Source: a phage
Sequence record: PV730299.1
Length of the DNA stretch: 64,000 nucleotides
Strand: one strand, 5' to 3'
Of the stretch, positions 1 to 43,649 are shown in pieces. The notes beneath the pieces were generated by a model, which saw nothing but the letters and a program-made list of their open reading frames with translations, ran no database searches and was not told the origin of the DNA. The stretch's first letter is position 1, and the number at the start of each line of letters is the position of its first letter. Position numbers and translations under genes: made by a program.

Positions 1-1821
1 AAGCTGCGCCTGCTCCAGCTGATGTTCGTCCTTGCTTACCGCACCAAGTCCAACTATGAGGACGGCCTGGGTACTGTGGCTCCGTGGCTGGCCATGTGCT
101 ACTATCGCCTGTACGAGAAGGGGATAGTACCTAAGATCCAGCGTGTATACGATGGTCCGACCGACTTTGAGGGTGCATACGTCATGGATGTGACACCAGG
201 AATCTACTTCTGGGTCTTCTCGGAAGATTTGAACTCCCTGTATCCTCACATCATTCAGCAGTACAACCTCGGTCCAGAGACTATCGTTGGCGACAAACAC
301 CAGCGCCGCGAGATTATTGAGGCTATGTGTGAAGAGCTGGCTGCTCAGATGAATAACATGGCAACGCCGATGCACAAACGTCGGTTGATGAAAGCCCTTC
401 ACGACAAGCTGTTGCGTGCGGTTGATGAACGCCTGCAGGTTGTTGATGAGTTGGTTGCCCTGGGTGAGTTCCACTTTGAAACCCTGCGCCGCTACAACGT
501 GTCGTTCACACCGAACGTTCAATTCTTCAGCAACGAGAAGATGTCGTTCCTGTCTGAAATCATGCGCGGTATCTACAGCGACCGTAAAGTAGAGAAGGCC
601 AAGGGGCTGAAGTACGAGCAGTGGGCTGGTTGGTGTAAAGAGATGTCGAAGGGCGACTTCCATCTTGAGTCTGCCATGAAGTCTCGCTACTATGACCCAG
701 AGTGGTATGAAGAGCACAAGAACATTGATCTTGATGCCCTGACCGAAGTGATGAAGAAGTGGGAAGACCTGGGCGTCGCTCAAGATACCCTTCAACAAGG
801 TCTGAAGATCTTGATGAACGCAGGTTATGGCGCGATCTCAAACGTCTGGTTCAAAGAGTACTTCAACCTCAACATTGCCGAAGCCATCACCACATCCGGT
901 CAGCTGATCAACAAGTGGAACAAGCGTTACACCGATGATTATCTGAACAAGCTGTGTGGTACAACAGGCCAGGACTTCGTCATCGCAGGGGATACCGACT
1001 CCAACTACATCTGCATTGAGCGTCTTGTCAAGCATTTGTGGCCTGATGTTACTGACCATCATGCTATGGTTGATAATATCGACCAATGGATCAAAGACAA
1101 CTACCAGCCGAAGACCAATGAGTGGGCACAGCTTCTGTGTAACACCATGAACGGATTTGAACAGCGCATGGTGTGGGAGCGTGAGGTCATTGCGTCAGCC
1201 GCTGTCTGGCGAGCCAAGAAGATGTATGCCATGGCCGTGTACGACAGTGAGGGTATCAAGTACGAGAAGCCGAAGATCAAGTTCAAAGGTCTGGAAGCCC
1301 GCAAGTCCACCACACCGGAATGGTGTCGTGAGCGTCTTGTCAAGTGCTATGAGAAGATCCTACTCGGCACCGAAGAGGAAGTGCAGACGCTCATCTCCCA
1401 GTACAAAGAGGAGTATATGAAACTCTCTGTAGACGATATCGCCAAGGCGTCAGGTGTGTCCGACATAGAGAAGTGTGTGGCTGCTGACGGATCGTTTATA
1501 TCTGGTGCTCATTTTGCTGCCAAGGCGTGTGTGGGCTACAACCGTCTGGTTGAGAAGAACGAAGATCTGGGTCTACCGATGATCGAGTCGGGTGATAAGG
1601 TACAGATGGTGTTGTTGAAGCCGGGCAACCCGTTTGGGCAGAACTACTTTGCATATCCTGAGTTCTTCCCCGAGGAGCTTGGTCTGGGCAAATGGGTGGA
1701 TTATCAGGCGGCCTTTGAGAAGTCCTTCATTGATCCGATTCAGTCTATCCTCGACGTGGTCGGCTGGTCACACAAGCGCCGTGTGAACCTTCTTGCCATG
1801 ATGCAAAAGAAGAAAGGTTGA
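1..1821 (+). CDS. 43: DNA polymerase, family B (T4 gp43-like), C-terminal part; 5' end lies upstream of the window
   Basis: Frame is open from base 1. Motif B-like KILMNAGYG and motif C VIAGDTDS seen in the translation; overall shape matches the palm/thumb region of T4-type polymerases. Confidence 0.88.
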   Translation, partial: KLRLLQLMFVLAYRTKSNYEDGLGTVAPWLAMCYYRLYEKGIVPKIQRVYDGPTDFEGAYVMDVTPGIYFWVFSEDLNSLYPHIIQQYNLGPETIVGDKHQRREIIEAMCEELAAQMNNMATPMHKRRLMKALHDKLLRAVDERLQVVDELVALGEFHFETLRRYNVSFTPNVQFFSNEKMSFLSEIMRGIYSDRKVEKAKGLKYEQWAGWCKEMSKGDFHLESAMKSRYYDPEWYEEHKNIDLDALTEVMKKWEDLGVAQDTLQQGLKILMNAGYGAISNVWFKEYFNLNIAEAITTSGQLINKWNKRYTDDYLNKLCGTTGQDFVIAGDTDSNYICIERLVKHLWPDVTDHHAMVDNIDQWIKDNYQPKTNEWAQLLCNTMNGFEQRMVWEREVIASAAVWRAKKMYAMAVYDSEGIKYEKPKIKFKGLEARKSTTPEWCRERLVKCYEKILLGTEEEVQTLISQYKEEYMKLSVDDIAKASGVSDIEKCVAADGSFISGAHFAAKACVGYNRLVEKNEDLGLPMIESGDKVQMVLLKPGNPFGQNYFAYPEFFPEELGLGKWVDYQAAFEKSFIDPIQSILDVVGWSHKRRVNLLAMMQKKKG

Positions 1822-1833
1822 TTCAATAAACCA

Positions 1834-1857
1834 AAGGGGGATATAATTCCCCCTGTT
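1834..1857 (+). terminator. stem-loop downstream of the polymerase gene (weak intrinsic terminator)
   Basis: AGGGGG / CCCCCT stem with AT-rich loop ATATAATT, preceded by TTCAATAAA; U-tract weak. Confidence 0.4.
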
Positions 1858-1883
1858 AACCCTTTGACAAACAGGTGATTGAA

Positions 1884-2225
1884 ATGAAACTCAATAAGAT
1901 TCTTCTGGTGTGCGCTCTGGCTTTCTCTACCACTGCGTGTTCCACCCTTCTGGACGTTGCTTCTACTGTAGACCTTGACGCGCCGACGTTCACCAATGAG
2001 CAGGCCGTGTCCAAGATGGAAGACACCATCAAGGCGCATGCAGCACTGGACAACACTACCCCAGGTCCGCTCCAAACTGTCTGCAACTATGACGATTCCA
2101 TCCAGGAAGACGAAACTTACCACTGCATCACCTACGTGAAGCAGGCCTCCGTCGTTCTGTATGCAGATTGTACCGAAGAACAGTGTGTTGCTACAGGCTA
2201 CGATAAAGTTGAGGAAGACAAATGA
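1884..2225 (+). CDS. putative lipoprotein / secreted small protein
   Basis: ATG at 1884 with AGGTGA 6 nt upstream (the track's 1875 start is GTG); N-terminal signal-like hydrophobic segment LLVCALAFSTTAC ending in Cys. Confidence 0.45.
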   Translation: MKLNKILLVCALAFSTTACSTLLDVASTVDLDAPTFTNEQAVSKMEDTIKAHAALDNTTPGPLQTVCNYDDSIQEDETYHCITYVKQASVVLYADCTEEQCVATGYDKVEEDK

Positions 2226-3001
2226 ACAACCTGGTTTGTATCTATGATATGAAATCAAAGGTCGGTGGCCTGTATCGCGTCCTCGTGGATGTTGACCTGA
2301 CGTTGGTCGACAGCCTCTCCCCTTGGGTGCAGTGGTTTAACGAAGAGAACATCGCCGCCGCTGCTATCGCTACGGGGGAACATAAGTCATACCAGTTCCA
2401 GCCGATTACCAAAGAGTGTTATATGTCCCATGCTGGCGACCTGGCTATTCTGATGCGTGAACGTGCGCATCCGGCGTGGCTATACCATGAAGTCCAATTG
2501 GGGATGCACAAACAACGTGTGCCAAGCGGTAACGATCCTATGGACTGGTGGCGTCGCCCTGACTTGTACGCCAAGATGAACCCACTTCCTGGTGCTTACG
2601 AGTTCCTGGTGAATCTGAAGAAGATTCTGCTCGAAGACTTTGACAATGTTGAATTCATCGCGGTGTCGAAGTGCGAGCCGGAACACGAGCGCAGCAAGCG
2701 TCAGTTTGTCTATGATAAGTTCCCTGGTATCTTCAACGGGTTTGTCAGCACCGACGAAAAGCATCTGCTGGCTGGCGATGTCCTGATTGATGACAATCCG
2801 AAGTATGTCGAGCCATGCGGTCTGAACAACATCTTTGTCATCTTTGTTCCTCAGGGCAATTATGAAAAACTGGATCTTTCGAATTCGGAAGACATGCTTT
2901 ATATTAAACCAGTAGAAGGCCAGAATCACTTCGACTTCCTGAACCGCAATATTGTTGAAGTGGTTAACCGCCTGATTAGTCATTATCAATACGTCCGATA
3001 G
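2222..3001 (+). CDS. HAD-superfamily phosphatase, 5'(3')-deoxyribonucleotidase-like
   Basis: HAD motif I-like VDVDLTLVD near the N-terminus and a C-terminal LIDDNP motif typical of the NT5C nucleotidase family; ATGA overlap with the upstream gene. Confidence 0.45.
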   Translation: MNNLVCIYDMKSKVGGLYRVLVDVDLTLVDSLSPWVQWFNEENIAAAAIATGEHKSYQFQPITKECYMSHAGDLAILMRERAHPAWLYHEVQLGMHKQRVPSGNDPMDWWRRPDLYAKMNPLPGAYEFLVNLKKILLEDFDNVEFIAVSKCEPEHERSKRQFVYDKFPGIFNGFVSTDEKHLLAGDVLIDDNPKYVEPCGLNNIFVIFVPQGNYEKLDLSNSEDMLYIKPVEGQNHFDFLNRNIVEVVNRLISHYQYVR

Positions 3002-3010
3002 GAGGACATC

Positions 3011-3316
3011 GTGCAAGAACAATCCAAGTTTGGGGAAACCCCAGACAAGCGTTCCGGTGATAGCGACATGGATAGCGTGATTAACCATGTGAACAACTTC
3101 ATTCGTCAGCAGGAGACTCCAACTCCTATCGGTGCAGCCAAGGCTCTTCATGATGTACTGGTGAAGATCGGCCAGCGCTCTGAAGCGGATGAAATCTTCT
3201 ATAACTTTGAAGACCAGTATAAAGTGAAGTTTGAAGAAAACGGTCGTCCGCAGGTTGCTGTGTTCTGGGCACCTTGGCTGGGCGGCGTGAGCTGGCGTAT
3301 TGAGGATGCTGTGTAA
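3011..3316 (+). CDS. hypothetical protein
   Basis: GTG start preceded by AGGAGG at 2999-3004; stop overlaps the next start (ATGCTG). Confidence 0.5.
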   Translation: MQEQSKFGETPDKRSGDSDMDSVINHVNNFIRQQETPTPIGAAKALHDVLVKIGQRSEADEIFYNFEDQYKVKFEENGRPQVAVFWAPWLGGVSWRIEDAV

Positions 3317-4002
3317 TGCTGTCGCTCTACCTGATCACGAATCTCGTCAATCATAAATTCTATATCGGTGTCACCTCAGAACCGGATAGGCGGTTGGCTG
3401 AGCATAAGTGTGGTCAGGGGAGCATTGCATTACAACGAGCGTTCAAGAAATACGGTGAAGACCAGTTCAAGTTTGAAGTTCTGTTCCGAGGGAAAGATTC
3501 GGTTATCCTTGAGATAGAGTCTGAACTGGTCTGCCAGGAGATCCTTGACTCTGGGTGGTGCTACAACATGGTCGTCGGGGGTGGGAAGCCTCCATTGGCC
3601 ACGCCAGAGTCATCCGCAAAGAGCGCCGCAACCCGCAAACGTTTGATCGCTGAAGGTAAGATTAAACCTCCACCAAGACTCACCCCTGAAGCACAAGCCA
3701 GAAAGGGTAAGATCATAAGCAAATTGATGTCAGAAGGGAAGATCCCCAAACCACCAAGACCTTCCTCTGAATCTCAAACGCGTGGAGGGGGAACTAGGAA
3801 GAGGCTGCATGCTCTTGGTCTGATAGACATTGGTCCTGGTCGCGATGAAAAGATTTACAAATGGCAGCACAAAGATGGTCGCATCGTTGAGTTAAGAAGA
3901 TGCGACATGGAACTTCAATATGGCCTCCCTTCCGGTAATATAACGAATCTCTTGAAAGGTAGGGCTAAAACATGTCTCGGTTGGAGAATATTAAATGGCT
4001 AA
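3316..4002 (+). CDS. GIY-YIG homing endonuclease
   Basis: N-terminal LYLITNLVNHKFYIGVT (GIY...YIG signature) followed by two basic repeats GKIKPPPRLTPEAQARKGK / GKIPKPPRPSSESQTRGGG resembling NUMOD-type DNA-binding repeats. Confidence 0.75.
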   Translation: MLSLYLITNLVNHKFYIGVTSEPDRRLAEHKCGQGSIALQRAFKKYGEDQFKFEVLFRGKDSVILEIESELVCQEILDSGWCYNMVVGGGKPPLATPESSAKSAATRKRLIAEGKIKPPPRLTPEAQARKGKIISKLMSEGKIPKPPRPSSESQTRGGGTRKRLHALGLIDIGPGRDEKIYKWQHKDGRIVELRRCDMELQYGLPSGNITNLLKGRAKTCLGWRILNG

Positions 4003-4912
4003 AATAATTGTAGTGAAAGGCACCTCGGCCACGGGCAAGGGTACGAGAGTGGTCCAGTTCATCGAATGGCTGCGCACTAAGCTGGAGCCTACCGAACTGA
4101 CCTACACCGTTGGTGACAAGACTCGCCCGTTTGGCCTGAAGTTCGGAGAGCTGAAGTTAATCTTCGTTGGGCAGTACACCGTGTCTAACAAATCCGGTCT
4201 GGCTTCCTGGACTTCAATGGATGCAATCCATGCTGCTACAGGCTCAGGCGATATTGCTCGTGATCTAATCAAGTGCTGGTTGGTTCAGGGATACACTCTG
4301 GTGTGTGAGGGCGAACCTCTCATGCTATCGGACAAATGGCGTCCTGAATGGATGTTCAAGAACTATCCGATTGAATCATTGGCGCTGCTGTACTTTGCGT
4401 ACCCCGACCGCTATCAGTACGATGCTCGTATCCGTGGTCGATCTGGTAAAGAAGCAGGGAACTCCGGCTGGTCGCGCAACGAATCTTACTACAAGGAGTT
4501 TGAGAAGTCGAAGGCCGAAATGCTGGCGCTGGGCTTCACTGTGGCTGTTGATGATTACAGCGGACAGGATATCCTGTATAAATCACCGGATGCCAACACC
4601 AAGGAGTTCACAACCAAACAGCAGTCTGAGTTGGCGGTACTACCGTTCGACGCCCCGCTGTGGGTTGTGGGTAATGCGATTTGTCATCAGATCCGCTCTG
4701 AACTGCGTGGTGTTGACATGCACACCAAAGACTTCTACGCCTACTGTGAAACCAATCCGATGACTCGTGAAATCGGCGGCCAGGATCCTTTGGCGCACAG
4801 AGTCCCTGAGAAGCCGCAGAAGGCATCCAAAACTAAAACCAAGGCGAGCGCCCAGCCAGAAGCACCGAAGGCAGCGTCGCGCTCTCTCCTTGACCTGATG
4901 AAGAAGGGGTGA
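3995..4912 (+). CDS. P-loop NTPase, kinase-like; function unassigned
   Basis: Walker A-like GTSATGKGT at residues 9-17 and a Walker B-like LVCEGE; 305 aa. No match recognised to T4 Pnk, Tk or gp1. Confidence 0.5.
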   Translation: MAKIIVVKGTSATGKGTRVVQFIEWLRTKLEPTELTYTVGDKTRPFGLKFGELKLIFVGQYTVSNKSGLASWTSMDAIHAATGSGDIARDLIKCWLVQGYTLVCEGEPLMLSDKWRPEWMFKNYPIESLALLYFAYPDRYQYDARIRGRSGKEAGNSGWSRNESYYKEFEKSKAEMLALGFTVAVDDYSGQDILYKSPDANTKEFTTKQQSELAVLPFDAPLWVVGNAICHQIRSELRGVDMHTKDFYAYCETNPMTREIGGQDPLAHRVPEKPQKASKTKTKASAQPEAPKAASRSLLDLMKKG

Positions 4913-5489: not shown

Positions 5490-5655
5490 TTTTATCTTCA
5501 TGATGTTGATGTTCGTTATCTTTACGGTTTCGCTGGTCGGCGTCATGGTCACAGAAGGAGTGCAACAGCGCCCATTCTTGGTGATATGTCCTGTATCTAT
5601 CGCCACTTTCTTCTATCTGGCGTTCCGTGTTGAACTCGGGAGTAAAATCGGATGA
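5470..5655 (+). CDS. small membrane protein
   Basis: 61 aa with two predicted transmembrane segments; overlaps the downstream start by 4 nt. Confidence 0.4.
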   Translation: MKIKQVDFIFMMLMFVIFTVSLVGVMVTEGVQQRPFLVICPVSIATFFYLAFRVELGSKIG

Positions 5656-6887
5656 CACATCTGTCTAAAATGCCGCAGGGATATAAAGCCCCTGAAAAAT
5701 GGAAATACCCGATTGATCTGGCAATAGATTATCGTAAGCCAGAAAATCGCATGTACCTACTCAAGGCTTGGGTGGAGGCGCTGTCCTACACCGAAGAGCA
5801 CAACCAGCAGATGCGTCTGATGGACTATGCGATCGAAGTCACTGAAGGTATCAGCCTCGAACAGAAAGTCGAGCGCAAGATCTGGATGGCATTCCTGTGG
5901 GGTTGTTGCTATAACGCCGTCGGGCCGTGGACGATCTACAGTGAGTTCCCTGTACCACCCCAGTCCAAAGAAGGGATGCAGCGCTTCTCTGATTGGTATA
6001 ATCTGAACTTTGATCGCATGCGATTCGATACCGACTGTCGCTACCGCAAGTCCAAGATGATTCCGTGTGTTCAGTCCTATATTGACTGGCTGGCTGGCCG
6101 TACTCAATATGACGCTTTCCGTGGGATGTTGGTGTGCATCGATAAGACAGAACAATTCACCCAGCTGTGGGACACGGCGATGTCCTGGAAATACTTCGGT
6201 CGCCTGAGCGCCTGGAACTTCCTGGAAGCCCTGAACATGGTCTTCGGGAACGAATACACCATTGACGTCCCTGGCTTCATGCTGCGTGATCGTGATGGAA
6301 GCGAGTCCAACCGTAATGGCGCGGCGTTCTTGTCCAACCGTGACGATTGGGTGACTAAACACGGGAAGAAAAAGATCAACGGTTGTCCTATCACGGATGA
6401 AGAGTGTGACATCCTTGAGGCCGACCTTGAGCAGGCGTTCCAGGATTGTGTGGCTGAGTTCGGGCACCTGACGTTCATCAACCGCCTGAACTTTGAAACC
6501 TCCGGCGCTTGTTGGCTGAAGAAATTCTTCCGACTGAAGAATACCCGTTACATCGGGTGGGACGCAGAGCGTACCTGGGATGAGATAGACTACATGGAAC
6601 GCGTCTGGCCTGAATACTCCTGCGCAGAGCTCTGGGAAGCCCGTTCGCTCTGGCTGCCAGATACCCTGTTATGTGAAAAGGCTCCTGCAGGGCACGTTCC
6701 AGGCGTCCAGAAGTGGAAGATGCCTGTATTCTTTGAGACTGGTGTTCCTCTGCATATCTGGCACCTGCAAAAGGGTACGCGCTGGGAACCATCCGAGGTA
6801 TGTACGAACCTGAAGATGCCTGTGCGCAAGGTTGAGGACAAGTCGAAGTCCAGCAGCGTCAACCTCATGGCACTCTTGAAACGCTGA
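5652..6887 (+). CDS. hypothetical protein (411 aa), function unassigned
   Basis: Long uninterrupted ORF, translationally coupled to the upstream gene; no motif recognised. Confidence 0.65.
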   Translation: MTHLSKMPQGYKAPEKWKYPIDLAIDYRKPENRMYLLKAWVEALSYTEEHNQQMRLMDYAIEVTEGISLEQKVERKIWMAFLWGCCYNAVGPWTIYSEFPVPPQSKEGMQRFSDWYNLNFDRMRFDTDCRYRKSKMIPCVQSYIDWLAGRTQYDAFRGMLVCIDKTEQFTQLWDTAMSWKYFGRLSAWNFLEALNMVFGNEYTIDVPGFMLRDRDGSESNRNGAAFLSNRDDWVTKHGKKKINGCPITDEECDILEADLEQAFQDCVAEFGHLTFINRLNFETSGACWLKKFFRLKNTRYIGWDAERTWDEIDYMERVWPEYSCAELWEARSLWLPDTLLCEKAPAGHVPGVQKWKMPVFFETGVPLHIWHLQKGTRWEPSEVCTNLKMPVRKVEDKSKSSSVNLMALLKR

Positions 6888-7091: not shown

Positions 7092-7117
7092 TCTGACTGG
7101 GGTTGCTTCCTTCAATA

Positions 7118-7158
7118 AAGGGGAATGGGTTATTATTAGCCCATTCCCCTTTCTTTTT
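7118..7158 (+). terminator. rho-independent terminator
   Basis: AAGGGGAATGGG / CCCATTCCCCTT stem, loop TTATTATTAG, then TCTTTTT; preceded by TTCAATAAA. Confidence 0.7.
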
Positions 7159-8608: not shown

Positions 8609-9178
8609 ATGTCTCAATCTAAGGGTATCGCAACAGGTTGGATAGTTGGTTTGGCTTTGCTGGGTATAATGATTCTCGGCATCGGTACAGTCATCAGCTA
8701 CTTCAACGACTTCAACCGCACTGAGCAGCAGGTCAAGAAGTTCAACAAAGACTCCGAGAACTACCTGAGCAACTACACGCTCAAAGTTCAGGAGACGGCG
8801 CAGATTCCTGACATGTATAAAGACGGCCTGAAGGAAGTGATCAAAGGCACGTTCGAAGGGCGTTATGGCGCTGATGGTTCCAAGGCCGTCATGCAGTGGA
8901 TCCAGGAGCAGAATATTCAGTTCGATTCCAGCCTGTACAAAGAGATCCAGGTGGTGATCAGTTCTGGGCGTGATGAATTCCGCATCAGCCAGACCAAGAA
9001 GCTGGATATCTGCACAATATACGAAACTAAGCTGGCTCAGTTCCCTGGTTCGTTGATTGCTGGCATGTTCGGCTACCCGCGTATCGACCTTGACAAGACC
9101 TGTCAGGTGGTGAGTGATACCCGTACCCAGGCCGCGTTCGACGCTGGTATTCAGAAACCGATTAACTTCAAAGGCTGA
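8609..9178 (+). CDS. LemA-family protein
   Basis: N-terminal transmembrane helix and the C-terminal signature FPGSLIAGMFGYPRI ... QKPINF characteristic of LemA proteins. Confidence 0.65.
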   Translation: MSQSKGIATGWIVGLALLGIMILGIGTVISYFNDFNRTEQQVKKFNKDSENYLSNYTLKVQETAQIPDMYKDGLKEVIKGTFEGRYGADGSKAVMQWIQEQNIQFDSSLYKEIQVVISSGRDEFRISQTKKLDICTIYETKLAQFPGSLIAGMFGYPRIDLDKTCQVVSDTRTQAAFDAGIQKPINFKG

Positions 9179-9182
9179 TGTC

Positions 9183-9596
9183 ATGAGCGTGAAACTCACT
9201 GAATCCCTGACACTGGACCAACAGCAGGCTTTGTTGGATGAGGTAGTGATCTCTGCTATCAAGCAAGGGATTATCAAAGACGACTTGTTGATTGACCGTC
9301 CCGAGATGATCCATCATCTGGTGGTGTGCCTGGGTGAGGCCAGCAACCCTCGCAAGAAGATCGTGCTGTTTACTGATGGTGTGATCCTTCCGAGCGGGAA
9401 ATGTGCGTTCTTGGATGTGGTTGAACATCCGAACACGAAAGGCAAAGAGGTCAAGACTTCTGTTCCGGTGACTCCATACACCGAGGGTGTTGACCATCTG
9501 TCTTGGTTTGAGACAATCAACACCATTTATGTGATGACACCGGACGGTAAACCAGTTCGGGATCTACGAGGCGGCAAAGTAGAATCTGAAGACTAA
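9183..9596 (+). CDS. hypothetical protein
   Basis: ATG at 9183 just after the LemA stop (the track's longer ORF from 9114 overlaps LemA); followed by an intrinsic terminator. Confidence 0.5.
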   Translation: MSVKLTESLTLDQQQALLDEVVISAIKQGIIKDDLLIDRPEMIHHLVVCLGEASNPRKKIVLFTDGVILPSGKCAFLDVVEHPNTKGKEVKTSVPVTPYTEGVDHLSWFETINTIYVMTPDGKPVRDLRGGKVESED

Positions 9597-9610
9597 TCGT
9601 TCTTCAATAA

Positions 9611-9646
9611 AAGGGGATAGGGTATTATTGCTCTATCCCTTTTTCG
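9611..9646 (+). terminator. rho-independent terminator
   Basis: GGGGATAGGG / CTCTATCCCT stem (two G-U pairs), loop TATTATTG, then TTTTT; preceded by TTCAATAAA. Confidence 0.65.
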
Positions 9647-9707
9647 TGGACAGGAACATGACAGACAAGCCAAGAAAGATGAAGAACAAACACCGGAGCA
9701 AACGCTG

Positions 9708-10163
9708 ATGACTACCAAACCAACTTATGAAGAACTGGCGCAGACCGTTCTGACCTTTGACAGCACCCTGAAGAATCTTTACAAGGTGCTGGGAAATAAC
9801 CCGACTTCAGAGTCAGGAGAAACAGTTAATCTTCTGTTACTGATGAACCCTCTGTGGGATATTGATGCCACTATTGCTGCCCTGAAAGATCCTGGGGCAC
9901 AGGAGCCGGAGCCAACCCCTGTATCCACTGGGATTCAGAAATACCTGGAGAACTTTGACGAGTACTCCTTCACAGATCTGCTCCTGCGTGATATGATCAA
10001 CACAGAACGCCGTCGCCAGGGGAAGAACTGTCCTGTGGTCCAGTCTGATGAAGAAATAGAGCAGAGTGTTCGGGAAGATCTGAACAGCACCTACTCGCCT
10101 ATCGATCTGGCTGTAATGATTGTTCAGGCGCTGTCCTACGCCGCCAAAGGAGAAACGAAATGA
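9708..10163 (+). CDS. hypothetical protein
   Basis: 151-aa ORF, acidic, ATGA-coupled to the downstream ORF. Confidence 0.5.
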   Translation: MTTKPTYEELAQTVLTFDSTLKNLYKVLGNNPTSESGETVNLLLLMNPLWDIDATIAALKDPGAQEPEPTPVSTGIQKYLENFDEYSFTDLLLRDMINTERRRQGKNCPVVQSDEEIEQSVREDLNSTYSPIDLAVMIVQALSYAAKGETK

Positions 10164-28015: not shown

Positions 28016-28330
28016 ATGACCCCATTAAAAGAAATGTATGAGCGTCTGGCTGAACTACAGGCGAAGGAAAAGCGCTTCTCAGAAGAAGAGTCTGAAATTG
28101 CCGAGCTGAACAACCTGATCGCCACTCGTGAGAAGTACCTGCAGCGCTACATTAATCACCCGCCGCGCATGGTAGACCGCGTCAGCACTATCATGGACCT
28201 GGATGAAGTTACTCCTGGCAAAGAAATCATTGTCAGGGAAGTCCACCAGATGGTCGCCATGGGTCAGATCTTTGGTCGTGCAGACCAAGACGACATGATC
28301 TTCCTCCTTGAAAAGAAACTGGTGATGTGA
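28016..28330 (+). CDS. hypothetical protein
   Basis: AGAGGA upstream; coiled-coil-like N-terminus. Confidence 0.5.
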   Translation: MTPLKEMYERLAELQAKEKRFSEEESEIAELNNLIATREKYLQRYINHPPRMVDRVSTIMDLDEVTPGKEIIVREVHQMVAMGQIFGRADQDDMIFLLEKKLVM

Positions 28331-28836
28331 TGGCTATCAAACCCCGTATGTTATTTGCGCATATGCGCTCGGCTCATGCATACGCTCTGTCCAGCTATGC
28401 CCAGCGCCTGAAGGTCGGCTGTGTTATCGTTGACCCGCGTGTTGACCAGCCCCTGTCTATCGGTTGGAACGGGACTGCTCCTGGCGCTCCTAATGTCTGT
28501 GAGAAGGAAGTAGACGGTCAACTGGTATCGGTGGGTGTTATCCACGCCGAGGAGAATGCTCTGAGCAAACTCCCCCAGCACACCGAAGACTGTTGTGGTC
28601 TGGTGATGTTTGTCACTCATAGTCCATGCCCAGAGTGCACCCGTCGTATTATCGACAGTGGCAAGATCGCTAAAGTGTTCTATGACCGACCATATCGTAT
28701 CATAGACGGCATTATTGAAATGCTGGCTGCTGGGATTGAAGTATATCGCATGGTCGATCAGATTGTTGTAGTCCAGCATTCTGTGAAGAACGGCGAACTG
28801 GTATCCACCCCTGTTTTAGTGAACCCTGACAAATAA
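28330..28836 (+). CDS. cd: dCMP deaminase (CMP/dCMP deaminase zinc-binding family)
   Basis: Zinc-binding motifs HAEENAL (H-A-E) and SPCPECTRRI (PC..C); ATG 28330 overlaps the upstream stop. Confidence 0.8.
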   Translation: MAIKPRMLFAHMRSAHAYALSSYAQRLKVGCVIVDPRVDQPLSIGWNGTAPGAPNVCEKEVDGQLVSVGVIHAEENALSKLPQHTEDCCGLVMFVTHSPCPECTRRIIDSGKIAKVFYDRPYRIIDGIIEMLAAGIEVYRMVDQIVVVQHSVKNGELVSTPVLVNPDK

Positions 28837-35008: not shown

Positions 35009-35668
35009 TCAGATTCCGTGGGCTTGTATTAGCTCACGGAGTCTCTGTTTTGAATATGTGGTATCCTCATCCGGAACCACAGCATTCGTCTTCCTGAGCA
35101 AGAACGCCTCTGAGTTCCAGTAGATGTCATCACGCAGAATCGTATCGTATAGATGAATGAACCCAACGATCTTGTTCAGACCGACAAGGAACCAAATCGG
35201 GAACTTCTTGATGATGATGTCTGTCAGCAACGGTGGATGGCCTGTACCCGTCCCCTTGATGTACTCAATGAAGGTGCAGTTGCGCTCCCTTATGGCAGGG
35301 ATCATCTCCCGCTCGAACTCCTCAAGGAAGTTATATGTGAAGTTCTCGTACAGCTTACGGTATTCATCATAATTGGCCTGAGCCTGGCGTGTAAGCAATG
35401 TCGTCACCCAGGTCTTGGGTGATTTGATGAAGTTGGCAATGATGTAGTTCTCTACCACTTCACCCTGTGTTGACTCGAACCGACGGGCAAGGCGAGCAAA
35501 CTGTTTGCACACGGCCTCCTTCGCCAAGAACGTCTCGAACTTGTAATTCATAGGTCCATACAAGCTGTAATCGAAGTCCTTAGTGGTGAAGTGCAGCTTG
35601 ATCGCCATGAAGACACAGTAAACGTTGAACGCCCGCTCGAACTCCATCTTCTGCCACTCTGTTAGCAT
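35009..35668 (-). CDS. hypothetical protein (219 aa)
   Basis: Convergent with the tape-measure gene; a weak resemblance to T4 gp59 helicase loader was considered but is not secure. Confidence 0.5.
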   Translation of the reverse strand: MLTEWQKMEFERAFNVYCVFMAIKLHFTTKDFDYSLYGPMNYKFETFLAKEAVCKQFARLARRFESTQGEVVENYIIANFIKSPKTWVTTLLTRQAQANYDEYRKLYENFTYNFLEEFEREMIPAIRERNCTFIEYIKGTGTGHPPLLTDIIIKKFPIWFLVGLNKIVGFIHLYDTILRDDIYWNSEAFLLRKTNAVVPDEDTTYSKQRLRELIQAHGI

Positions 35669-35916
35669 TTGCGTTCCTCTTCTTTAATAAATTGCAATAA
35701 CTCTTCCATCAGCCCTTTCTTCTTGATGAACTGTAACACTAGGATGAAGCGACGGAAGGAGCGGGGGACAACACGATAACCCTTCGCCCAGTAGTTCACA
35801 ACATTAGAACAATCCAATAAACGAGCCAGCCCAGATTGTGACACCCCGAGGCTCAGTAGAACCTTGTACATGTACTTCTTGTCATTTACCGGAAGTTCTT
35901 TCATTCTTAAACTCAT
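35662..35916 (-). CDS. HTH DNA-binding protein (XRE-like)
   Basis: LGVSQSGLARLLDCSNVVNYWAKG matches the helix-turn-helix pattern of XRE/Cro-type regulators. Confidence 0.5.
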   Translation of the reverse strand: MSLRMKELPVNDKKYMYKVLLSLGVSQSGLARLLDCSNVVNYWAKGYRVVPRSFRRFILVLQFIKKKGLMEELLQFIKEEERKC

Positions 35917-36139
35917 GATACTTGTCCGCTAATGTCTTGTAATATTTGTTAGGATTATACTCCTGTTTGGAATAGTGAAGAGTAAGGGAAGCACTCAGAC
36001 CTAGGATAATCACGACAACGAGCGCCTTGTGGTTATTGATCTCGGGAATAGCTATCCACACCAGCAACAACACAAGCGAGCTGATAATCAAGGACAGTAA
36101 GAACGTTAATGCAATCACCAATGCGAATAGCTCGTCCAT
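35882..36139 (-). CDS. small membrane protein
   Basis: 85 aa with two hydrophobic helices. Confidence 0.4.
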   Translation of the reverse strand: MDELFALVIALTFLLSLIISSLVLLLVWIAIPEINNHKALVVVIILGLSASLTLHYSKQEYNPNKYYKTLADKYHEFKNERTSGK

Positions 36140-36143
36140 CAGA

Positions 36144-36365
36144 TCACACCTCTTTGTGTTTCTTCATCTTGCGGACAGTGCCCACAAACCCAAGATCCTT
36201 CCCGCAATGGGTGCAGATAGCATGGCAAGCATGGTTCTCACGATAGGTGCTGTGTTTGCAGCGCCATTGCTTGAACGCCGAACGGGCAACTAGGATCACG
36301 GCGATCAAGAAGACGATACCGGATATCTGAAGTTCAACCAAGAACTTCGCCCACCAGAAACTCAT
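36144..36365 (-). CDS. small membrane protein with C-terminal Cys/His cluster
   Basis: Start set at the second ATG to avoid overlap with the ligase; one transmembrane helix then CKHSTYRENHACHAICTHCGKD. Confidence 0.4.
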   Translation of the reverse strand: MSFWWAKFLVELQISGIVFLIAVILVARSAFKQWRCKHSTYRENHACHAICTHCGKDLGFVGTVRKMKKHKEV

Positions 36366-36369
36366 ATAC

Positions 36370-37800
36370 TCACCCATTACTCTTCTCCAACAGGAATGCG
36401 ATGTTTTCGATGTACGCTTTCTGTATCGCATAGACTTCATCCAGTGTGTTGGCCACTTTCTTGTCAATGCGGACTTCTACAAGGCGAGGCAGGAACAAAG
36501 ACTTCATCGCATCATCTGTCTTATCCTGTACGCCATTGGAGAGCACTGCGGCGATCTTGCCAATGTAGTCGCCCTGGTTCTCCCACATATGGCGTCTCAG
36601 CTCATCTGAGATCCCTGATACGCCAACAACAAGCAGGCTGTCGGAAGTTTTACAAATCAGTGAGCCAAAAGTCTTGGCGTGTTTACCCTTCTTGTCAGCC
36701 TCGTTGAAGCCCACGATTTCAAGGTCACACTCAACCTCCATCTTCAGCTTCAGACCTTCAGAAGAAGTCCCATCTTCCCAAGGCATGTCGGCGGCCTTAC
36801 ATATCGTGCCTTCTTCTTTGCGAGCCAGCGCGTCTTTGAAGTGGTCGACGGCTTCGGCAAATGAGTGAACAACGCGGGTTTCTTGAACCTGAACCAGACC
36901 GTCGTCTTCATCAAACAGTTGCTGGATAATATCGAAGCGGCGCTCATACGGGATATCCACGCGCTGGGCGTTGAACCAGTTGTCGTACGGGATAACATCC
37001 CACACCCGGTAGATCACCCGATAACGATCTTCCAGGGGTTCTCCTGTCTGAATCACGCTGTTGAGTTTACCGTTACCGACAGCACGAGGCAGGATGGTAT
37101 TCGACTTGAGGTCAACAACGAGAAGTTCACCATGGAACACACTCTCACCAATCCCCGCATCGTAGATCAGGTCTTTGAACACCAGTGAAAGGTTATCAAC
37201 CGAACCACCTGCGATAAGGGAACCGGAGCGAGAGCGAATCTCAGGCTCTTTATTGTACCGACATATGATGTTGGCGAACATACCGTCTGACTTCAGCTGG
37301 CTGTAGACGCCGCGCTTGAAGTCCATCTTCTTCAGCAGGTCAATCGTCATGTTGTCGTAACGATGATACGGAAGAATGTTGATCAGGCGTCCAGTGCCTC
37401 CGGCGGCGTTGAATGCAGCGTTGATGCCCTTCTCAGCGATACCCGCCTTGATATCACGGTCTAGGATCATCTGAATGAGTTCGTGGTATTGGGGATCCAT
37501 CTTCAGGGCGACAGAGGCCAACAGGGCATCAGCCTTTTGGCCACCGACAAGACGCTGCGCCATCTGGTCGAGGACGTCATAGACTTCGCTGATGTCATCA
37601 GTCTTCTCACGGACGAGCATGCGAGGATACGCGCTGAGCTTCAACTCAGTCCGATAGAACGACGTCATTGGGTCATAGACATACTGCAGGAAGTCTGCCA
37701 AGTCTGGGTTGTTCTTGAATGCTTCGGTCAGCACGGCTTTCTTCGCATTGCTGCCTTTGGTTTCGCGAAGTCGGTGGACTATTTCAAGGATAGGGATCAT
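36370..37800 (-). CDS. 30: ATP-dependent DNA ligase (T4 gp30-like)
   Basis: Adenylation-site KxDG motif in QLKSDGMF; 476 aa, similar length and N-terminal organisation to T4 DNA ligase. Confidence 0.8.
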   Translation of the reverse strand: MIPILEIVHRLRETKGSNAKKAVLTEAFKNNPDLADFLQYVYDPMTSFYRTELKLSAYPRMLVREKTDDISEVYDVLDQMAQRLVGGQKADALLASVALKMDPQYHELIQMILDRDIKAGIAEKGINAAFNAAGGTGRLINILPYHRYDNMTIDLLKKMDFKRGVYSQLKSDGMFANIICRYNKEPEIRSRSGSLIAGGSVDNLSLVFKDLIYDAGIGESVFHGELLVVDLKSNTILPRAVGNGKLNSVIQTGEPLEDRYRVIYRVWDVIPYDNWFNAQRVDIPYERRFDIIQQLFDEDDGLVQVQETRVVHSFAEAVDHFKDALARKEEGTICKAADMPWEDGTSSEGLKLKMEVECDLEIVGFNEADKKGKHAKTFGSLICKTSDSLLVVGVSGISDELRRHMWENQGDYIGKIAAVLSNGVQDKTDDAMKSLFLPRLVEVRIDKKVANTLDEVYAIQKAYIENIAFLLEKSNG

Positions 37801-42059: not shown

Positions 42060-43122
42060 GGTCCATTTGCTCCAGCATGTTAGCAGGCATAACAGTACCG
42101 TTAGAAACACCGAACATTTTCTTCACGTCATCGGCGAAGTTGACATTCTCCAGCAGCGGATACCAGAAATCATCACCCATCTGACGCTTCTGATATTTCT
42201 TTTCCTTCTCAGGATCGAAACCACCCTTGGCTGTACGCACATACCAGCCGGAAGACGGCATATCAACATAACCCAGAGCACGAGCGATCTCAAGCAGGCC
42301 GCTCCAGCGATCAATACCACCGTTGTACAGTACCGTCACAGGGAGCTTGGCTTTCTCTTTGACATGGCGACCTTTCATGATGCTTATGTTGAAGTTCCAG
42401 CCCAGCAGATCTTTGTCTTCCTTCACCTGAGAACGGGTGATAAACCAGATCAAGTTGGAGGATAAGAAGCCCTGTTTGCCACCTTTGATGTTAGGCTCGG
42501 CATATTGGTTGCCGATCTCATCGTAATAAGAGTTGATCCAAACACACACGAGATTTTTGCTGTTGATTTCGGGAGTCATGACACGCCAGAAGCTGTTAAG
42601 GGCACGGGCGCGGGTCATGTCCTGAGTGTCGTTCCCTTTGATCGCATCTTCAACTTCCTTGGTGGAGGGAAGTTGGCTGATAGAGTCGATGAAGATTATA
42701 ACATGGTCGCCTTTCTTGACTTCCTGTAGGATCTGCAGCAAGCGGATCTTGGTCTGTTCAACGTTGTCGATCGGTACGTACAGGACGCGGTCCATGTCAA
42801 TGCCCATAGAGGTCCAGTAATCGGCGTTGGCACCCTTTTCTGAGTCCGCAAAGACGCAGATAGCATCAGGGAACTTGTCCATGTACGCCTTGACGTCTAC
42901 CAGACCGAACATCGTTTTGAAGGTACGGGAATCACCCACCATCATCTTGATACCGGAGATCAGACCGCCGTCAATACGCCCAGACCATGCGATATCGATC
43001 AGGGGAATACCAGTAGAACAGATGATAGACGGTTCCAGAGCGTCGGATTTGGACAGCACTGAAGCCTGGTCATCGTGTTTCTTAGCAACCTTCAGCATGC
43101 GGTCCATTAATGAACTGGCCAT
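42037..43122 (-). CDS. uvsX: UvsX recombinase (RecA/Rad51 family)
   Basis: IPLIDIAWSGRIDGGLISGIKMMVGDSRTFKTMFGLVDVKAYMDKFPDAICVFADSE aligns from memory to T4 UvsX (IPMMNIALSGEITGG...GPSKSFKSNFGL...YPDAVCLFYDSE). Confidence 0.85.
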   Translation of the reverse strand: MASSLMDRMLKVAKKHDDQASVLSKSDALEPSIICSTGIPLIDIAWSGRIDGGLISGIKMMVGDSRTFKTMFGLVDVKAYMDKFPDAICVFADSEKGANADYWTSMGIDMDRVLYVPIDNVEQTKIRLLQILQEVKKGDHVIIFIDSISQLPSTKEVEDAIKGNDTQDMTRARALNSFWRVMTPEINSKNLVCVWINSYYDEIGNQYAEPNIKGGKQGFLSSNLIWFITRSQVKEDKDLLGWNFNISIMKGRHVKEKAKLPVTVLYNGGIDRWSGLLEIARALGYVDMPSSGWYVRTAKGGFDPEKEKKYQKRQMGDDFWYPLLENVNFADDVKKMFGVSNGTVMPANMLEQMDHVINTSE

Positions 43123-43649
43123 TTCACTTCCTCTTTATTGTTGATCGTCGTTAATAATTCTACACCCATAACCTTCTGGGACAAAATGTTAACCGCCTCT
43201 TGGATGCTCTTCAGGGACATTGTCTCAACAAGCGACGATGCGTCATTATGCCGGTCGGTTAGGTACATATTGCGCAGATTGTTGTAGTTCGTGCGGTTGA
43301 TGCACGCAGTGTTCAGTGCTATATTCAGGATATACATCATCTGTTCAATGGTTACATCCTTTGGCATAGCGTGGATGTAATAGATCGAGCCTTCAAAATA
43401 GACGTCTACCAGTTCATCTGGTATCTTGATGCCACCACCGGCATACTCTTCGATCATCCTGAACAGAGACTCTGGTTGCTCGCTGGCGATTTTATGCGTA
43501 ACAGTCGCCGAAAGACCGTCGCCCGGTTTAACAGGCCTGTTGTATTCAGTAAGGAATACATTATGTCCGCCGCCGATGATGTGCTCGGCGAATTTGGAAG
43601 ATGCCTGAGCAGCGTTCTCCGCATGGTATGAAACGACGACTGTAAACAT
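43107..43649 (-). CDS. hypothetical protein
   Basis: 180-aa ORF coupled to uvsX and the upstream gene. Confidence 0.45.
   Translation of the reverse strand: MFTVVVSYHAENAAQASSKFAEHIIGGGHNVFLTEYNRPVKPGDGLSATVTHKIASEQPESLFRMIEEYAGGGIKIPDELVDVYFEGSIYYIHAMPKDVTIEQMMYILNIALNTACINRTNYNNLRNMYLTDRHNDASSLVETMSLKSIQEAVNILSQKVMGVELLTTINNKEEVKWPVH

What the first reader, a model, noticed from the sequence alone, without database searches (positions are those of the whole stretch)
2222..3001. HAD-family 5'-nucleotidase-like gene next to the DNA polymerase
DxDxT motif I and a C-terminal LIDDNP motif point to the 5'(3')-deoxyribonucleotidase family. Phages that replace a canonical base often encode a dNMP phosphatase to deplete the competing canonical nucleotide, so this gene may belong with the thymidylate-synthase-homologue module.
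Basis: partly seen in the sequence, partly recalled or inferred. Interest (0 to 1): 0.4.

Follow-up and report, generated by a model that had tools for sequence, protein, structure and literature searches.

The report
Phage NT5C-type nucleotidase, probable dTMPase
This conserved gene of ViI-like (Ackermannviridae) phages encodes a small-molecule phosphatase of the 5'(3')-deoxyribonucleotidase family; it lies in the same gene string as enzymes that hypermodify thymine in the phage DNA and probably removes dTMP from the nucleotide pool, but its substrate has never been tested.

Summary

The window is an Agtrevirus-like Ackermannviridae phage. The gene is core to that family (ViI Vi01_194) and is already annotated "5'(3')-deoxyribonucleotidase" in many GenBank records.

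The gene lies 1 kb upstream of 5-hmdU DNA kinase 2 and 2.6 kb upstream of the amino-acid:DNA transferase. In distant viral contigs, homologues (25-33% identity) recur beside the transferase, the thymidylate-synthase homologue, a dUTPase_2-type pyrophosphohydrolase and a dNMP kinase, in varying gene orders. PhiW-14 has a homologue. A PF06941 enzyme of the uracil-DNA phage PBS1 was shown in 2025 to be a dTMP phosphatase.

Caveats:
- The same phage family (phrog_420) also sits beside ThyX in rV5-like phages.
- About 60% of ViI thymidine stays unmodified.
- The in vitro reconstitution of the ViI base did not include this gene.
- Substrate preference is untested.

Verdict: an ordinary, new member of a known kind.

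The parts
2222..3001 (+). NT5C-like HAD phosphatase gene (259 aa; orthologue of ViI Vi01_194 / orf00239; phrog_420)
2288..2302 (+). HAD motif I, D23-V-D25-L-T27 (nucleophile Asp and general acid/base Asp); followed by the conserved V29-D30
   Evidence: read from the sequence; invariant in 36 homologues; D23 and D25 invariant in 54 distant relatives
2309..2584 (+). Enlarged cap domain (about residues 30-121). Helices 32-87, a variable beta-hairpin insert at 88-101, and helix 106-111 carrying W110 and Y116 (= mdN W96 and F102)
   Evidence: secondary structure of the model; variable or deleted segment in homologues; residue mapping from HMMER alignments
2666..2698 (+). Motif II Ser149 and the clade signature S-K-C-E-P-E-H-E-R-S-K, ending in motif III Lys159 (= mdN K143)
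2759..2761 (+). Lys180 (= mdN K165), invariant
2783..2800 (+). Motif IV, L-I-D190-D191-N-P (Mg2+-binding aspartates; = mdN D175 and D176)
22..1821 (+). C-terminal part of the family-B DNA polymerase gene, upstream
1818..1847 (+). Sigma-70-like promoter match (TTGATT-18-TATAAT, 10 of 12) just after the polymerase stop. Possible start of the transcription unit; weak evidence
   Evidence: promoter-like sites in the region are not above the shuffled expectation
1875..2225 (+). 116-aa ORF with a signal-peptide or lipoprotein-like N-terminus (phrog_3748). Its stop overlaps the target's start codon
3011..3316 (+). 101-aa ORF of unknown function (phrog_3911), AGGAGG 6 nt upstream; orthologue of ViI orf00240
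3316..4002 (+). SegD-like GIY-YIG homing endonuclease inserted in the gene string (absent in ViI)
3995..4912 (+). 5-hmdU DNA kinase 2 (Pfam HMUD2, E 8.5e-158; orthologue of ViI gp243)
5652..6887 (+). Amino-acid:DNA transferase / aGPT-Pplase clade 2 (Pfam ADDT, E 6.5e-60; orthologue of ViI gp247, the serine:DNA transferase)
7117..7152 (+). Strong intrinsic-terminator-like hairpin (16-bp stem plus T run) that closes the gene string
28327..28836 (+). dCMP deaminase (HAEE...PCxxC), the dUMP supply for the hydroxymethylase
43649..44203 (-). dUTPase_2-type NTP pyrophosphohydrolase (phrog_173); candidate dUTPase/dTTPase partner
44200..44769 (-). dNMP kinase (phrog_139)
44766..45812 (-). Thymidylate-synthase homologue (Pfam Thymidylat_synt, E 5.3e-17); presumed dUMP hydroxymethylase
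45812..46471 (-). 5-hmdU DNA kinase 1 (Pfam HMUDK_HMUD1, E 4e-109; orthologue of ViI gp67)

Best explanation
The gene encodes a soluble, Mg2+-dependent HAD-superfamily phosphomonoesterase of the 5'(3')-deoxyribonucleotidase (NT5C, PF06941) type. Asp23 would attack the phosphate to form an aspartyl-phosphate. Asp25 would act as general acid/base. Ser149, Lys159 and Lys180 would hold the phosphate, and Asp190 and Asp191 the metal. An enlarged helical cap (residues about 30-121) would close over a small substrate. The most likely substrate is a pyrimidine deoxynucleoside monophosphate, with dTMP preferred. In this ViI-like phage the enzyme would form the 'dTMPase' arm of the pre-replicative pathway. 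Together with the dUTPase_2-type pyrophosphohydrolase it would drain dT nucleotides. Meanwhile dCMP deaminase, the thymidylate-synthase homologue and the dNMP kinase would build 5-hmdUTP. The 5-hmdU in DNA is then phosphorylated (HMUD1/HMUD2) and converted to 5-NeOmdU (ADDT plus a PLP decarboxylase). Shown here: the fold, the catalytic residues, family membership, purifying selection and gene linkage. Inferred: the substrate, the preference for dTMP over dUMP and 5-hmdUMP, and the physiological role. My estimates: about 0.95 for an NT5C-type phosphatase, about 0.65 for a pyrimidine dNMP substrate, about 0.45 for a dT-depletion role.
For: Catalytic motifs:
- All four HAD motifs are present and invariant in 36 Ackermannviridae homologues.
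- D23, D25, K159, K180 and D191 are invariant in 54 relatives at 22-44% identity.

Family and fold:
- Pfam NT5C scores above threshold. 46 of 54 sampled relatives match NT5C at E <= 0.001.
- A profile of the family hits human mdN at E 1e-5. The alignment puts K143, K165, D175/D176, W96 and F102 of mdN opposite K159, K180, D190/D191, W110 and Y116.
- dN/dS is 0.05-0.14.

Local context:
- The gene shares a same-strand, tightly packed string with HMUD2 and ADDT. A promoter-like site lies at 1818 and a strong terminator at 7117.
- The same gene order is found in ViI.

Distant contigs:
- L010, L032, L033, L036, L039, L043, L044 and L046 carry homologues of 28-33% identity. Their DNA polymerases are only 29-40% identical to the window's where one was detected (none within 10 kb in L044).
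- In these contigs the homologue lies within 10 kb of ADDT, the TS homologue, dUTPase_2 and (in all but L032) the dNMP kinase, in differing gene orders.
- In L032, L033, L037, L039 and L043 the dUTPase_2 match starts 0.7-1.3 kb upstream of the homologue.
- 10 of 25 lineages (clustered at 60% identity) have a TS homologue or ThyX within 10 kb. 14 of 25 have some T-pathway gene.

Other phages and precedent:
- PhiW-14, the classic 5-hmdU-derived hypermodifier, encodes a structural relative, gp018 (Foldseek E 5.5e-12, TMt 0.77).
- PBS1 Dtm (PF06941) is a Mg2+-dependent phosphatase that prefers dTMP over dUMP (PMC12697855).
- Outside its own PHROG, Dtm's best match is phrog_420, the target's family (E 1.6e-9).
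- The Dtm gene also lies directly downstream of a DNA polymerase gene.
- Classic biochemistry of 5-hmdU phages describes a phage dTTPase plus a dTMPase (PMC8989533).
Against: - No enzyme assay exists for any phrog_420 member that I could find.
- Only the C-terminal half aligns to the NT5C HMM.
- The mdN base-stacking residue F49 is Ser31 here.
- Homology to Dtm_PBS1 is weak (hhalign E 0.0024, probability 12%).
- phrog_420 is widespread: 659 phage records with PhiW-14 gp018 as query.
- In rV5-like phages it sits 0.6-1.1 kb upstream of a ThyX-like gene. In other phages it sits next to gp32, a dNMP kinase or a thymidine kinase. A dedicated dTMP-depleting role therefore cannot hold for the whole family.
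- In ViI-like phages only about 40% of T is replaced, and the rest is dT.
- Five ViI genes without this one sufficed to make 5-NeOmdU on 5-hmdU DNA in lysates. This fits a pre-replicative role but shows the gene is dispensable for the chemistry.
- The gene is not in the published list of genes shared by T-hypermodifying phages. None of my tblastn searches listed M6-like or Bacillus 5-hmdU phages.
Confidence: 0.5

Rival explanations
1. It is a general (deoxy)nucleoside monophosphate nucleotidase of the phage nucleotide-metabolism set. It would balance pools through a kinase/nucleotidase substrate cycle, as mdN and cdN do in animals, or dispose of dNMPs released from host DNA, as the T5 Dmp activity does. 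It would have no special relation to thymine replacement, and its position beside HMUD2 and ADDT would be inherited synteny with the replication module.
For: phrog_420 members occur in at least 659 phage genomes, including many rV5-like phages. Some lie beside ThyX plus RNR, some beside gp32 in T4-like contigs, and some beside a dNMP, adenylate or thymidine kinase. 12 of 25 lineages have the DNA polymerase within 10 kb. The gene is not needed for in vitro hypermodification. ViI DNA keeps about 60% dT.
Against: The homologue stays linked to ADDT, the TS homologue and dUTPase_2 in at least two deeply separated clades despite rearranged gene order. This is hard to explain by inherited synteny alone. 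The only characterised phage relative is dTMP-selective.
Confidence: 0.33
2. It dephosphorylates a non-nucleotide metabolite that feeds the hypermodification. Examples are O-phosphoserine to serine, the donor used by the ViI-type amino-acid:DNA transferase, or phosphoethanolamine.
Against: Sequence and structure point specifically to NT5C, not to SerB-like or sugar-phosphatase HADs. Relatives sit beside ThyX, kinases and RNR, which are nucleotide genes. E. coli lysate supplied all cofactors without this protein.
Confidence: 0.07
3. It acts on DNA rather than on free nucleotides. It might remove the phosphate from 5-phosphomethyl-dU, which would limit modification to about 40% of sites, or it might act as a 3'-phosphatase like the HAD domain of T4 polynucleotide kinase.
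Against: The protein has a large cap of about 90 residues inserted after motif I. From established knowledge of HAD cap types, such caps enclose small substrates, whereas DNA- and protein-directed HADs are capless. The nearest structures are nucleotide enzymes by a clear margin.
Confidence: 0.05

Closest known systems
Dtm_PBS1 (UniProt A0A223LEB8; PBI_PBS1_39), the dTMP phosphatase of uracil-DNA Bacillus phage PBS1 (PMC12697855)
   Same: Both are phage-encoded PF06941-type HAD enzymes with an enlarged cap (241 aa against 259 aa) and a motif I followed by a D-(S/I)-x-SP-x-W segment. Both genes lie just downstream of a DNA polymerase gene in a phage that replaces thymine. Outside its own PHROG, Dtm's best match is the target's family, phrog_420 (E 1.6e-9).
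   Different: Similarity is very weak (hhalign E 0.0024, 17% identity). Motif IV is E-D in Dtm and D-D here. Dtm homologues are confined to 21 dU-DNA jumbo phage records. Dtm has been assayed and the target has not. The competing nucleotide that must be spared is dUMP in PBS1, whereas here it would be dUMP and 5-hmdUMP.
Human mitochondrial and cytosolic 5'(3')-deoxyribonucleotidases (mdN/NT5M, cdN/NT5C; e.g. 1mh9, 1z4i, 6g2n)
   Different: Identity is 16-19%. The target's cap carries about 40 extra residues, including a beta-hairpin at 88-101. mdN F49 is Ser31 here. The target has the clade-specific S-x-C-x-P-E-H-x-x-S-K segment. The N-terminal half does not align to the Pfam HMM.
Staphylococcus epidermidis deoxyribonucleotidase-like protein 3bwv (structural genomics)
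   Different: Its function is uncharacterised, so it gives no information on substrate. It is 180 aa long and lacks the cap insert.
Delftia phage PhiW-14 gp018 ('Nucleotidase', UniProt C9DFZ0) and the wider phrog_420 family
   Same: It belongs to the same phage family, shares the motif pattern D-V-D-L-T-x-V-D ... IDD, and comes from a phage whose thymine is made from 5-hmdU.
   Different: It is 201 aa long with no cap insert. It lies next to the gp32-like SSB, about 16 kb from the phage's 5-hmdU DNA kinase, and is untested. PHROGs labels the family 'unknown function'.
Functional analogues from other folds: DSS3_VP1 Dtm (HD/YfbR family), PhiR1-37 Dtt (HAM1), and the classic SP5C dTMPase and phi-e dTTPase activities
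   Same: They have the same proposed physiological role, which is removal of dT nucleotides so that a replacement base is incorporated.
   Different: Their folds are unrelated, or the gene behind the activity has never been identified.

Membership tests
HAD superfamily phosphatases | Motif I DxDx(T/V) at the end of strand 1 | tested here: met
   D23-V-D25-L-T27 follows predicted strand 15-22. It is invariant in homologues.
HAD superfamily phosphatases | Motif II (S/T), motif III (K) and motif IV (DD or equivalent acidic pair) | tested here: met
   S149 ends strand 140-149. K159 and K180 are present. D190-D191 end strand 187-190.
HAD superfamily phosphatases | Rossmann-like alpha/beta core fold | tested here: met
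HAD superfamily phosphatases | Mg2+-dependent phosphoryl transfer through an aspartyl-phosphate | not testable with these tools
   This needs an enzyme assay with a D23N control.
NT5C / 5'(3')-deoxyribonucleotidase family (Pfam PF06941) | Score above the curated Pfam threshold | tested here: met
   35 bits against 24.8, E 1.6e-8. 46 of 54 relatives match NT5C at E <= 0.001.
NT5C / 5'(3')-deoxyribonucleotidase family (Pfam PF06941) | Full-length match to the family model, including the N-terminal DMDGVLAD region | tested here: inconclusive
   Only profile positions 56-142 of 180 align. The motif I region aligns by eye and as a sub-threshold HMMER domain (RVLVDVDLTLVD against RVLVDMDGVLAD).
NT5C / 5'(3')-deoxyribonucleotidase family (Pfam PF06941) | Helical C1 cap inserted after motif I, and nearest structural neighbours that are deoxyribonucleotidases | tested here: met
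NT5C / 5'(3')-deoxyribonucleotidase family (Pfam PF06941) | Aromatic residues that stack on the base and sugar (mdN F49, W96, F102) and the cap residues that read the pyrimidine | tested here: inconclusive
   W110 and Y116 are conserved at the W96 and F102 positions, but F49 corresponds to Ser31. The cap residues could not be mapped without model coordinates.
NT5C / 5'(3')-deoxyribonucleotidase family (Pfam PF06941) | Dephosphorylation of 5'- or 3'-deoxyribonucleotides | not testable with these tools
   This needs an assay on dNMPs.
Phage dTMP phosphatases (Dtm) that exclude thymine | Preference for dTMP over dUMP and other (d)NMPs | not testable with these tools
   Shown only for Dtm_PBS1 and Dtm_DSS3_VP1.
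Phage dTMP phosphatases (Dtm) that exclude thymine | Detectable homology to the characterised NT5C-type Dtm_PBS1 | tested here: inconclusive
   Dtm_PBS1 matches phrog_420 at E 1.6e-9. hhalign against the family alignment gives only E 0.0024 and probability 12%, with the motifs in register.
Phage dTMP phosphatases (Dtm) that exclude thymine | Encoded by a phage that replaces thymine in its DNA | tested here: met
   The window carries the TS homologue, HMUD1, HMUD2 and ADDT. It is 76-99% identical in this protein to ViI-like phages. ViI, CBA6, CBA120 and 1.255.O contain 5-NeOmdU.
Thymidine-hypermodification gene set (5-HMUDK / aGPT-Pplase systems) | Recurrent physical linkage with 5-hmdU DNA kinase, amino-acid:DNA transferase and the dUMP hydroxymethylase across unrelated phages | tested here: met
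   Shown by loci L010, L032, L033, L036, L039, L043, L044, L046 and L047 and by the window itself.
Thymidine-hypermodification gene set (5-HMUDK / aGPT-Pplase systems) | Present in all, and only in, thymidine-hypermodifying phages | tested here: not met
   It is not in the published shared set. No M6-like or Bacillus phage is listed. It is common in rV5-like phages that carry ThyX.
Thymidine-hypermodification gene set (5-HMUDK / aGPT-Pplase systems) | Required for formation of the modified base on DNA | tested here: not met
   From the literature only: ViI gp67, gp160, gp226, gp243 and gp247 sufficed in lysates (PMC5889632).

The most novel reading that the evidence does not exclude
The phrog_420 branch of NT5C-like enzymes would be an unrecognised, recurrent accessory of 5-hmdU-based thymidine hypermodification systems. 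It would be a dTMP-selective phosphatase that spares dUMP and 5-hmdUMP. Paired with the dUTPase_2-type pyrophosphohydrolase, it would be the gene behind the 'dTMPase' activity described in 5-hmdU phages in 1965. It would set how much canonical T enters ViI-like DNA, and so the roughly 40% modification level.
Probability: 0.35. Interest if true: 0.5.

Novelty: new member of a known kind. Interest (0 to 1): 0.32.

Why it matters
ViI-like (Ackermannviridae) phages are widely used as biocontrol and therapy candidates. Their 5-NeOmdU DNA resists many restriction enzymes. The post-replicative steps of that pathway have been reconstituted. The pre-replicative control of the dTTP versus 5-hmdUTP pools has no assigned genes beyond the thymidylate-synthase homologue. 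The origin of the remaining 60% dT is also open. If this enzyme is a dTMP-selective phosphatase, it fills one of those gaps. It would also offer a handle (knockout or overexpression) for tuning the modified fraction, and it would extend the recently shown PBS1 Dtm principle from uracil-DNA phages to hypermodified-thymine phages. If it is only a general nucleotidase, the finding is routine annotation.

Tried and rejected
- NCBIfam gave no match for the target or its neighbours, apart from the homing endonuclease.
- A literature search for Ackermannviridae plus deoxyribonucleotidase found nothing relevant. Lee 2018 has no occurrence of nucleotidase or phosphatase, and Lee 2021 mentions only a phosphatase-free DNA hydrolysis, not a ViI gene. 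The 2021 supplements are not held.
- I tried to derive substrate specificity from the model.
- I considered a Cys/His metal site (C66, C151, H155, H181). It cannot be tested without coordinates. C151 and the PEH signature occur in only about a quarter to a third of wider relatives. I dropped the idea.
- hhalign to Dtm_PBS1 gave only a weak match, so I do not claim orthology.
- dS against the ViI, Klebsiella-phage and Erwinia-phage orthologues was saturated. I used closer orthologues instead.
- Promoter-like sites are no more frequent than in shuffled sequence, so the operon boundaries remain an inference.
- Four region fetches failed on the 50,000-base limit.
- Pseudogene or chance ORF is rejected by the dN/dS values and by conservation in 278 phage genomes.
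Full report
**What is there.**
The window is an Agtrevirus-like member of the Ackermannviridae. Its first 6 kb are 96% identical to Escherichia phage AV101 and 92% identical to Shigella phage Ag3.

ORF 2222..3001 (+) encodes 259 aa. It begins with an ATG that overlaps the stop of a 116-aa upstream ORF (ATGA). An AGGAGG-led ORF follows 10 nt after its stop.

DVDLT is at residues 23-27 (nt 2288-2302). LIDDNP is at residues 188-193 (nt 2783-2800).

**Is it an NT5C-type HAD enzyme?**
- Pfam NT5C (PF06941) matches at E 1.6e-8, 35 bits against a gathering score of 24.8. The match covers only residues 109-198.
- PHROGs places the protein in phrog_420, labelled 'unknown function' (E 6e-60). It gives a weak second match to phrog_2643, '5'-3' deoxyribonucleotidase'. 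NCBIfam has nothing.
- Sixty-three homologue clusters were found, almost all from contigs of about 155-160 kb.
- In 36 aligned homologues the invariant residues include D23, D25, T27, D30, W35, W110, Y116, C151, P153, E154, H155, S158, K159, K180, D190 and D191.
- HMMER alignments to solved deoxyribonucleotidases put D23/D25, K159, K180 and D190/D191 opposite mdN D41/D43, K143, K165 and D175/D176. W110 and Y116 fall opposite W96 and F102. mdN F49 corresponds to Ser31.
- An AlphaFold2 model built on that alignment is confident (pLDDT 88.4, pTM 0.85).
- Its best solved neighbours are 3bwv, human mdN and human cdN by Foldseek.
- Compared with those 170-200-aa enzymes, the cap between motif I and the core is about 40 residues longer. 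It contains a variable beta-hairpin at 88-101 that some relatives lack.
- dN/dS against close orthologues is 0.05-0.14.

The observation and the family assignment therefore stand.

**Is it already known?**
The gene is a core gene of the family. tblastn finds it in 369 phage records, 278 of them at full length. Annotation is split between 'hypothetical protein' and '(putative) 5'(3')-deoxyribonucleotidase'. For example, RPN242 gp180 carries the name, while AV101 and ViI Vi01_194/orf00239 do not.

Neither of the two papers that worked out ViI hypermodification mentions a phage nucleotidase or phosphatase gene. A 2023 Agtrevirus genome paper lists five thymidine-modification genes and not this one.

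**Context in the window.**
The gene string on the + strand runs as follows:
- DNA polymerase (ends 1821)
- phrog_3748 ORF
- the target
- phrog_3911 ORF
- a SegD-like homing endonuclease
- HMUD2 5-hmdU DNA kinase 2 (3995..4912, E 8.5e-158)
- three small ORFs
- ADDT amino-acid:DNA transferase (5652..6887, E 6.5e-60)
- one small ORF
- a 16-bp-stem terminator at 7117..7152

A 10/12 promoter match lies at 1818..1847. ViI has the same order without the endonuclease: orf236 pol, 237, 239, 240, gp243, 244, 245, gp247.

The pre-replicative genes lie elsewhere in the window:
- dCMP deaminase at 28327..28836
- on the minus strand, a dUTPase_2-type NTP pyrophosphohydrolase (43649..44203)
- a dNMP kinase (44200..44769)
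- the thymidylate-synthase homologue (44766..45812)
- HMUD1 (45812..46471)

So the gene is 42 kb from the TS homologue but inside the string that holds two post-replicative enzymes.

**Context elsewhere.**
A profile search of 1.84 billion representative proteins found 845 relatives. Most are 175-230 aa. Most share D-V-D-L-T-x-V-D and IDD, and about a quarter to a third also carry S-x-C-x-P-E-H-x-x-S-K. All 54 relatives sampled fall in phrog_420, and 46 of 54 match Pfam NT5C at E <= 0.001.

I fetched 63 IMG/VR loci with 10 kb flanks. I then searched them locally with the window's own pathway proteins. Three kinds of neighbourhood appear, and they track a neighbour-joining tree of the proteins.

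(a) Thymine-modification neighbourhoods. These include the Ackermannviridae and L010, L030 and L046. They also include a separate clade of short (173-192 aa) homologues in contigs whose polymerases are only 26-30% identical to the window's where one was detected (L032, L033, L036, L037, L039, L043, L044). Most of these lie within 10 kb of ADDT, the TS homologue (35-42% identical), dUTPase_2 and the dNMP kinase. Gene orders differ, and in that clade the dUTPase_2 gene is often directly upstream. L010 reads polB, orf, NT5C, HMUD2, orf, HMUDK_hel, ADDT, orf, Thymidylat_synt, orf, dUTPase_2.

(b) ThyX neighbourhoods. rV5-like and Aeromonas phages carry the homologue 0.6-1.1 kb upstream of a ThyX-like gene and near RNR.

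(c) T4-like neighbourhoods. Here the homologue sits next to gp32 with no thymidylate gene nearby.

After clustering at 60% identity, 10 of 25 lineages have a TS homologue or ThyX within 10 kb, and 14 of 25 have some T-pathway gene. A naive 13% expectation gives P about 7e-4, but the lineages are not independent.

PhiW-14, the classic putrescinyl-thymine phage, has a relative. This is gp018 (C9DFZ0, 'Nucleotidase'; Foldseek E 5.5e-12, TMt 0.77). It lies next to the phage's SSB gene rather than its kinase. With gp018 as query, 659 phage records match, many of them rV5-like. Some of those hits lie beside dNMP, adenylate or thymidine kinase genes.

**Experimental precedent.**
A 2025 study identified the long-sought PBS1 dTMP phosphatase as a PF06941 protein (A0A223LEB8). 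It is Mg2+-dependent, with Km 42 uM for dTMP. Activity on dUMP is lower and activity on other (d)NMPs is small. The authors found it through AlphaFold similarity to human mdN (PMC12697855).

I recovered its sequence from the PBS1 genome using the published primers. It is 241 aa, PBI_PBS1_39, and lies directly downstream of a DNA polymerase gene. Outside its own PHROG, its best match is phrog_420 (E 1.6e-9). hhalign to the target's family is weak, though the motifs are in register (E 0.0024). Its close homologues occur only in uracil-DNA jumbo phages.

**Interpretation.**
The protein is almost certainly an active, capped HAD phosphatase of the deoxyribonucleotidase type. It acts on a small substrate, most likely a pyrimidine dNMP.

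The best-supported role here is a dTMPase that works with the dUTPase_2-type enzyme to lower dT nucleotides. Meanwhile dCMP deaminase, the TS homologue and the dNMP kinase would make 5-hmdUTP. This is the classic scheme for 5-hmdU phages (PMC8989533).

That last step is inference. Several points count against a strict role:
- The family is also present in ThyX-encoding phages.
- About 60% of T in ViI-like DNA remains dT.
- The gene is dispensable for in vitro hypermodification, and it is absent from the published shared gene set.

The main rival is a general pool-balancing nucleotidase. Action on phosphoserine-type metabolites or on DNA is less likely, given the fold neighbours and the large cap.

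**Verdict.**
This is a new member of a known kind. The family-level annotation already exists in GenBank, and an NT5C-type phage dTMPase already has a precedent. What appears undescribed is the recurrent linkage of this phrog_420 branch with thymidine-hypermodification genes. That linkage makes a simple enzyme assay and a knockout worthwhile. Interest is modest.

Noticed in passing
L008 7809..8411 and 8918..9946 (Escherichia phage AV124); also L050, L053-L055, L057, L060, L062, L064, L066, L069, L070: In rV5-like (Vequintavirinae) and some Aeromonas phages, the phrog_420 nucleotidase-like gene lies 0.6-1.1 kb upstream of an unusually long (343 aa) ThyX-like gene. Its Pfam Thy1 match is only partial (residues 22-185, E 8.5e-9). 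A nucleotidase next to a dTMP-making enzyme is unexplained.
   Followed up: partly
L075 34536..35261 (-) and 35341..37266 (-) (Bacillus phage PBS1): The experimentally characterised dTMP phosphatase Dtm_PBS1 (PBI_PBS1_39, annotated hypothetical) lies directly downstream of a DNA polymerase I gene. This mirrors the polymerase-proximal position of the target.
   Followed up: partly
L032, L033, L037, L039, L043 (IMG/VR contigs), about 0.7-1.3 kb upstream of the match at 10001 (7543 in L039): In a clade of short (175-181 aa) homologues, a dUTPase_2-type NTP pyrophosphohydrolase match starts 0.7-1.3 kb upstream of the nucleotidase-like gene. This could be a dTTPase/dUTPase plus dTMPase pair.
   Followed up: partly
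window 3316..4002 (+): A SegD-like GIY-YIG homing endonuclease is inserted between the phrog_3911 ORF and HMUD2 and overlaps the HMUD2 start by 8 nt. ViI lacks it at this position.
   Followed up: partly
L001 4822..9004 (phage RPN242), compared with window 22..1821: The DNA polymerase is annotated as two CDSs separated by an inserted ORF in RPN242, and is interrupted by homing endonucleases in Dickeya phages. It is continuous in AV101.
   Followed up: no
L077 14894..15499 (-) (Delftia phage PhiW-14 gp018): PhiW-14 encodes a 201-aa phrog_420 'nucleotidase' next to its gp32-like SSB, about 16 kb from its 5-hmdU DNA kinase. It is annotated only as similar to rV5 gp100.
   Followed up: partly
window 7117..7152: A very strong hairpin (16-bp stem, 7 GC pairs) with a T run lies after the ADDT gene and a small membrane ORF. 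It probably ends the transcription unit.
   Followed up: no
window 43107..43649 (-): A 180-aa 'Phage ACT-like domain' protein (PF24021, E 1.2e-78) lies immediately downstream of the dUTPase_2-type gene in the pre-replicative cluster. ACT domains usually bind small-molecule regulators, so it may control this nucleotide module.
   Followed up: no
L010 11943..13181: A distant contig carries an HMUDK_hel (PF18723) gene between HMUD2 and ADDT. All pre- and post-replicative thymine-modification genes sit in one block of about 9 kb that starts with polB and the NT5C-like gene.
   Followed up: no
window 2222..3001 and public records: Annotation is inconsistent. PHROGs calls phrog_420 'unknown function' although 46 of 54 sampled members match Pfam NT5C at E <= 0.001. 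GenBank records of near-identical phages alternate between 'hypothetical protein' and '5'(3')-deoxyribonucleotidase'.
   Followed up: yes
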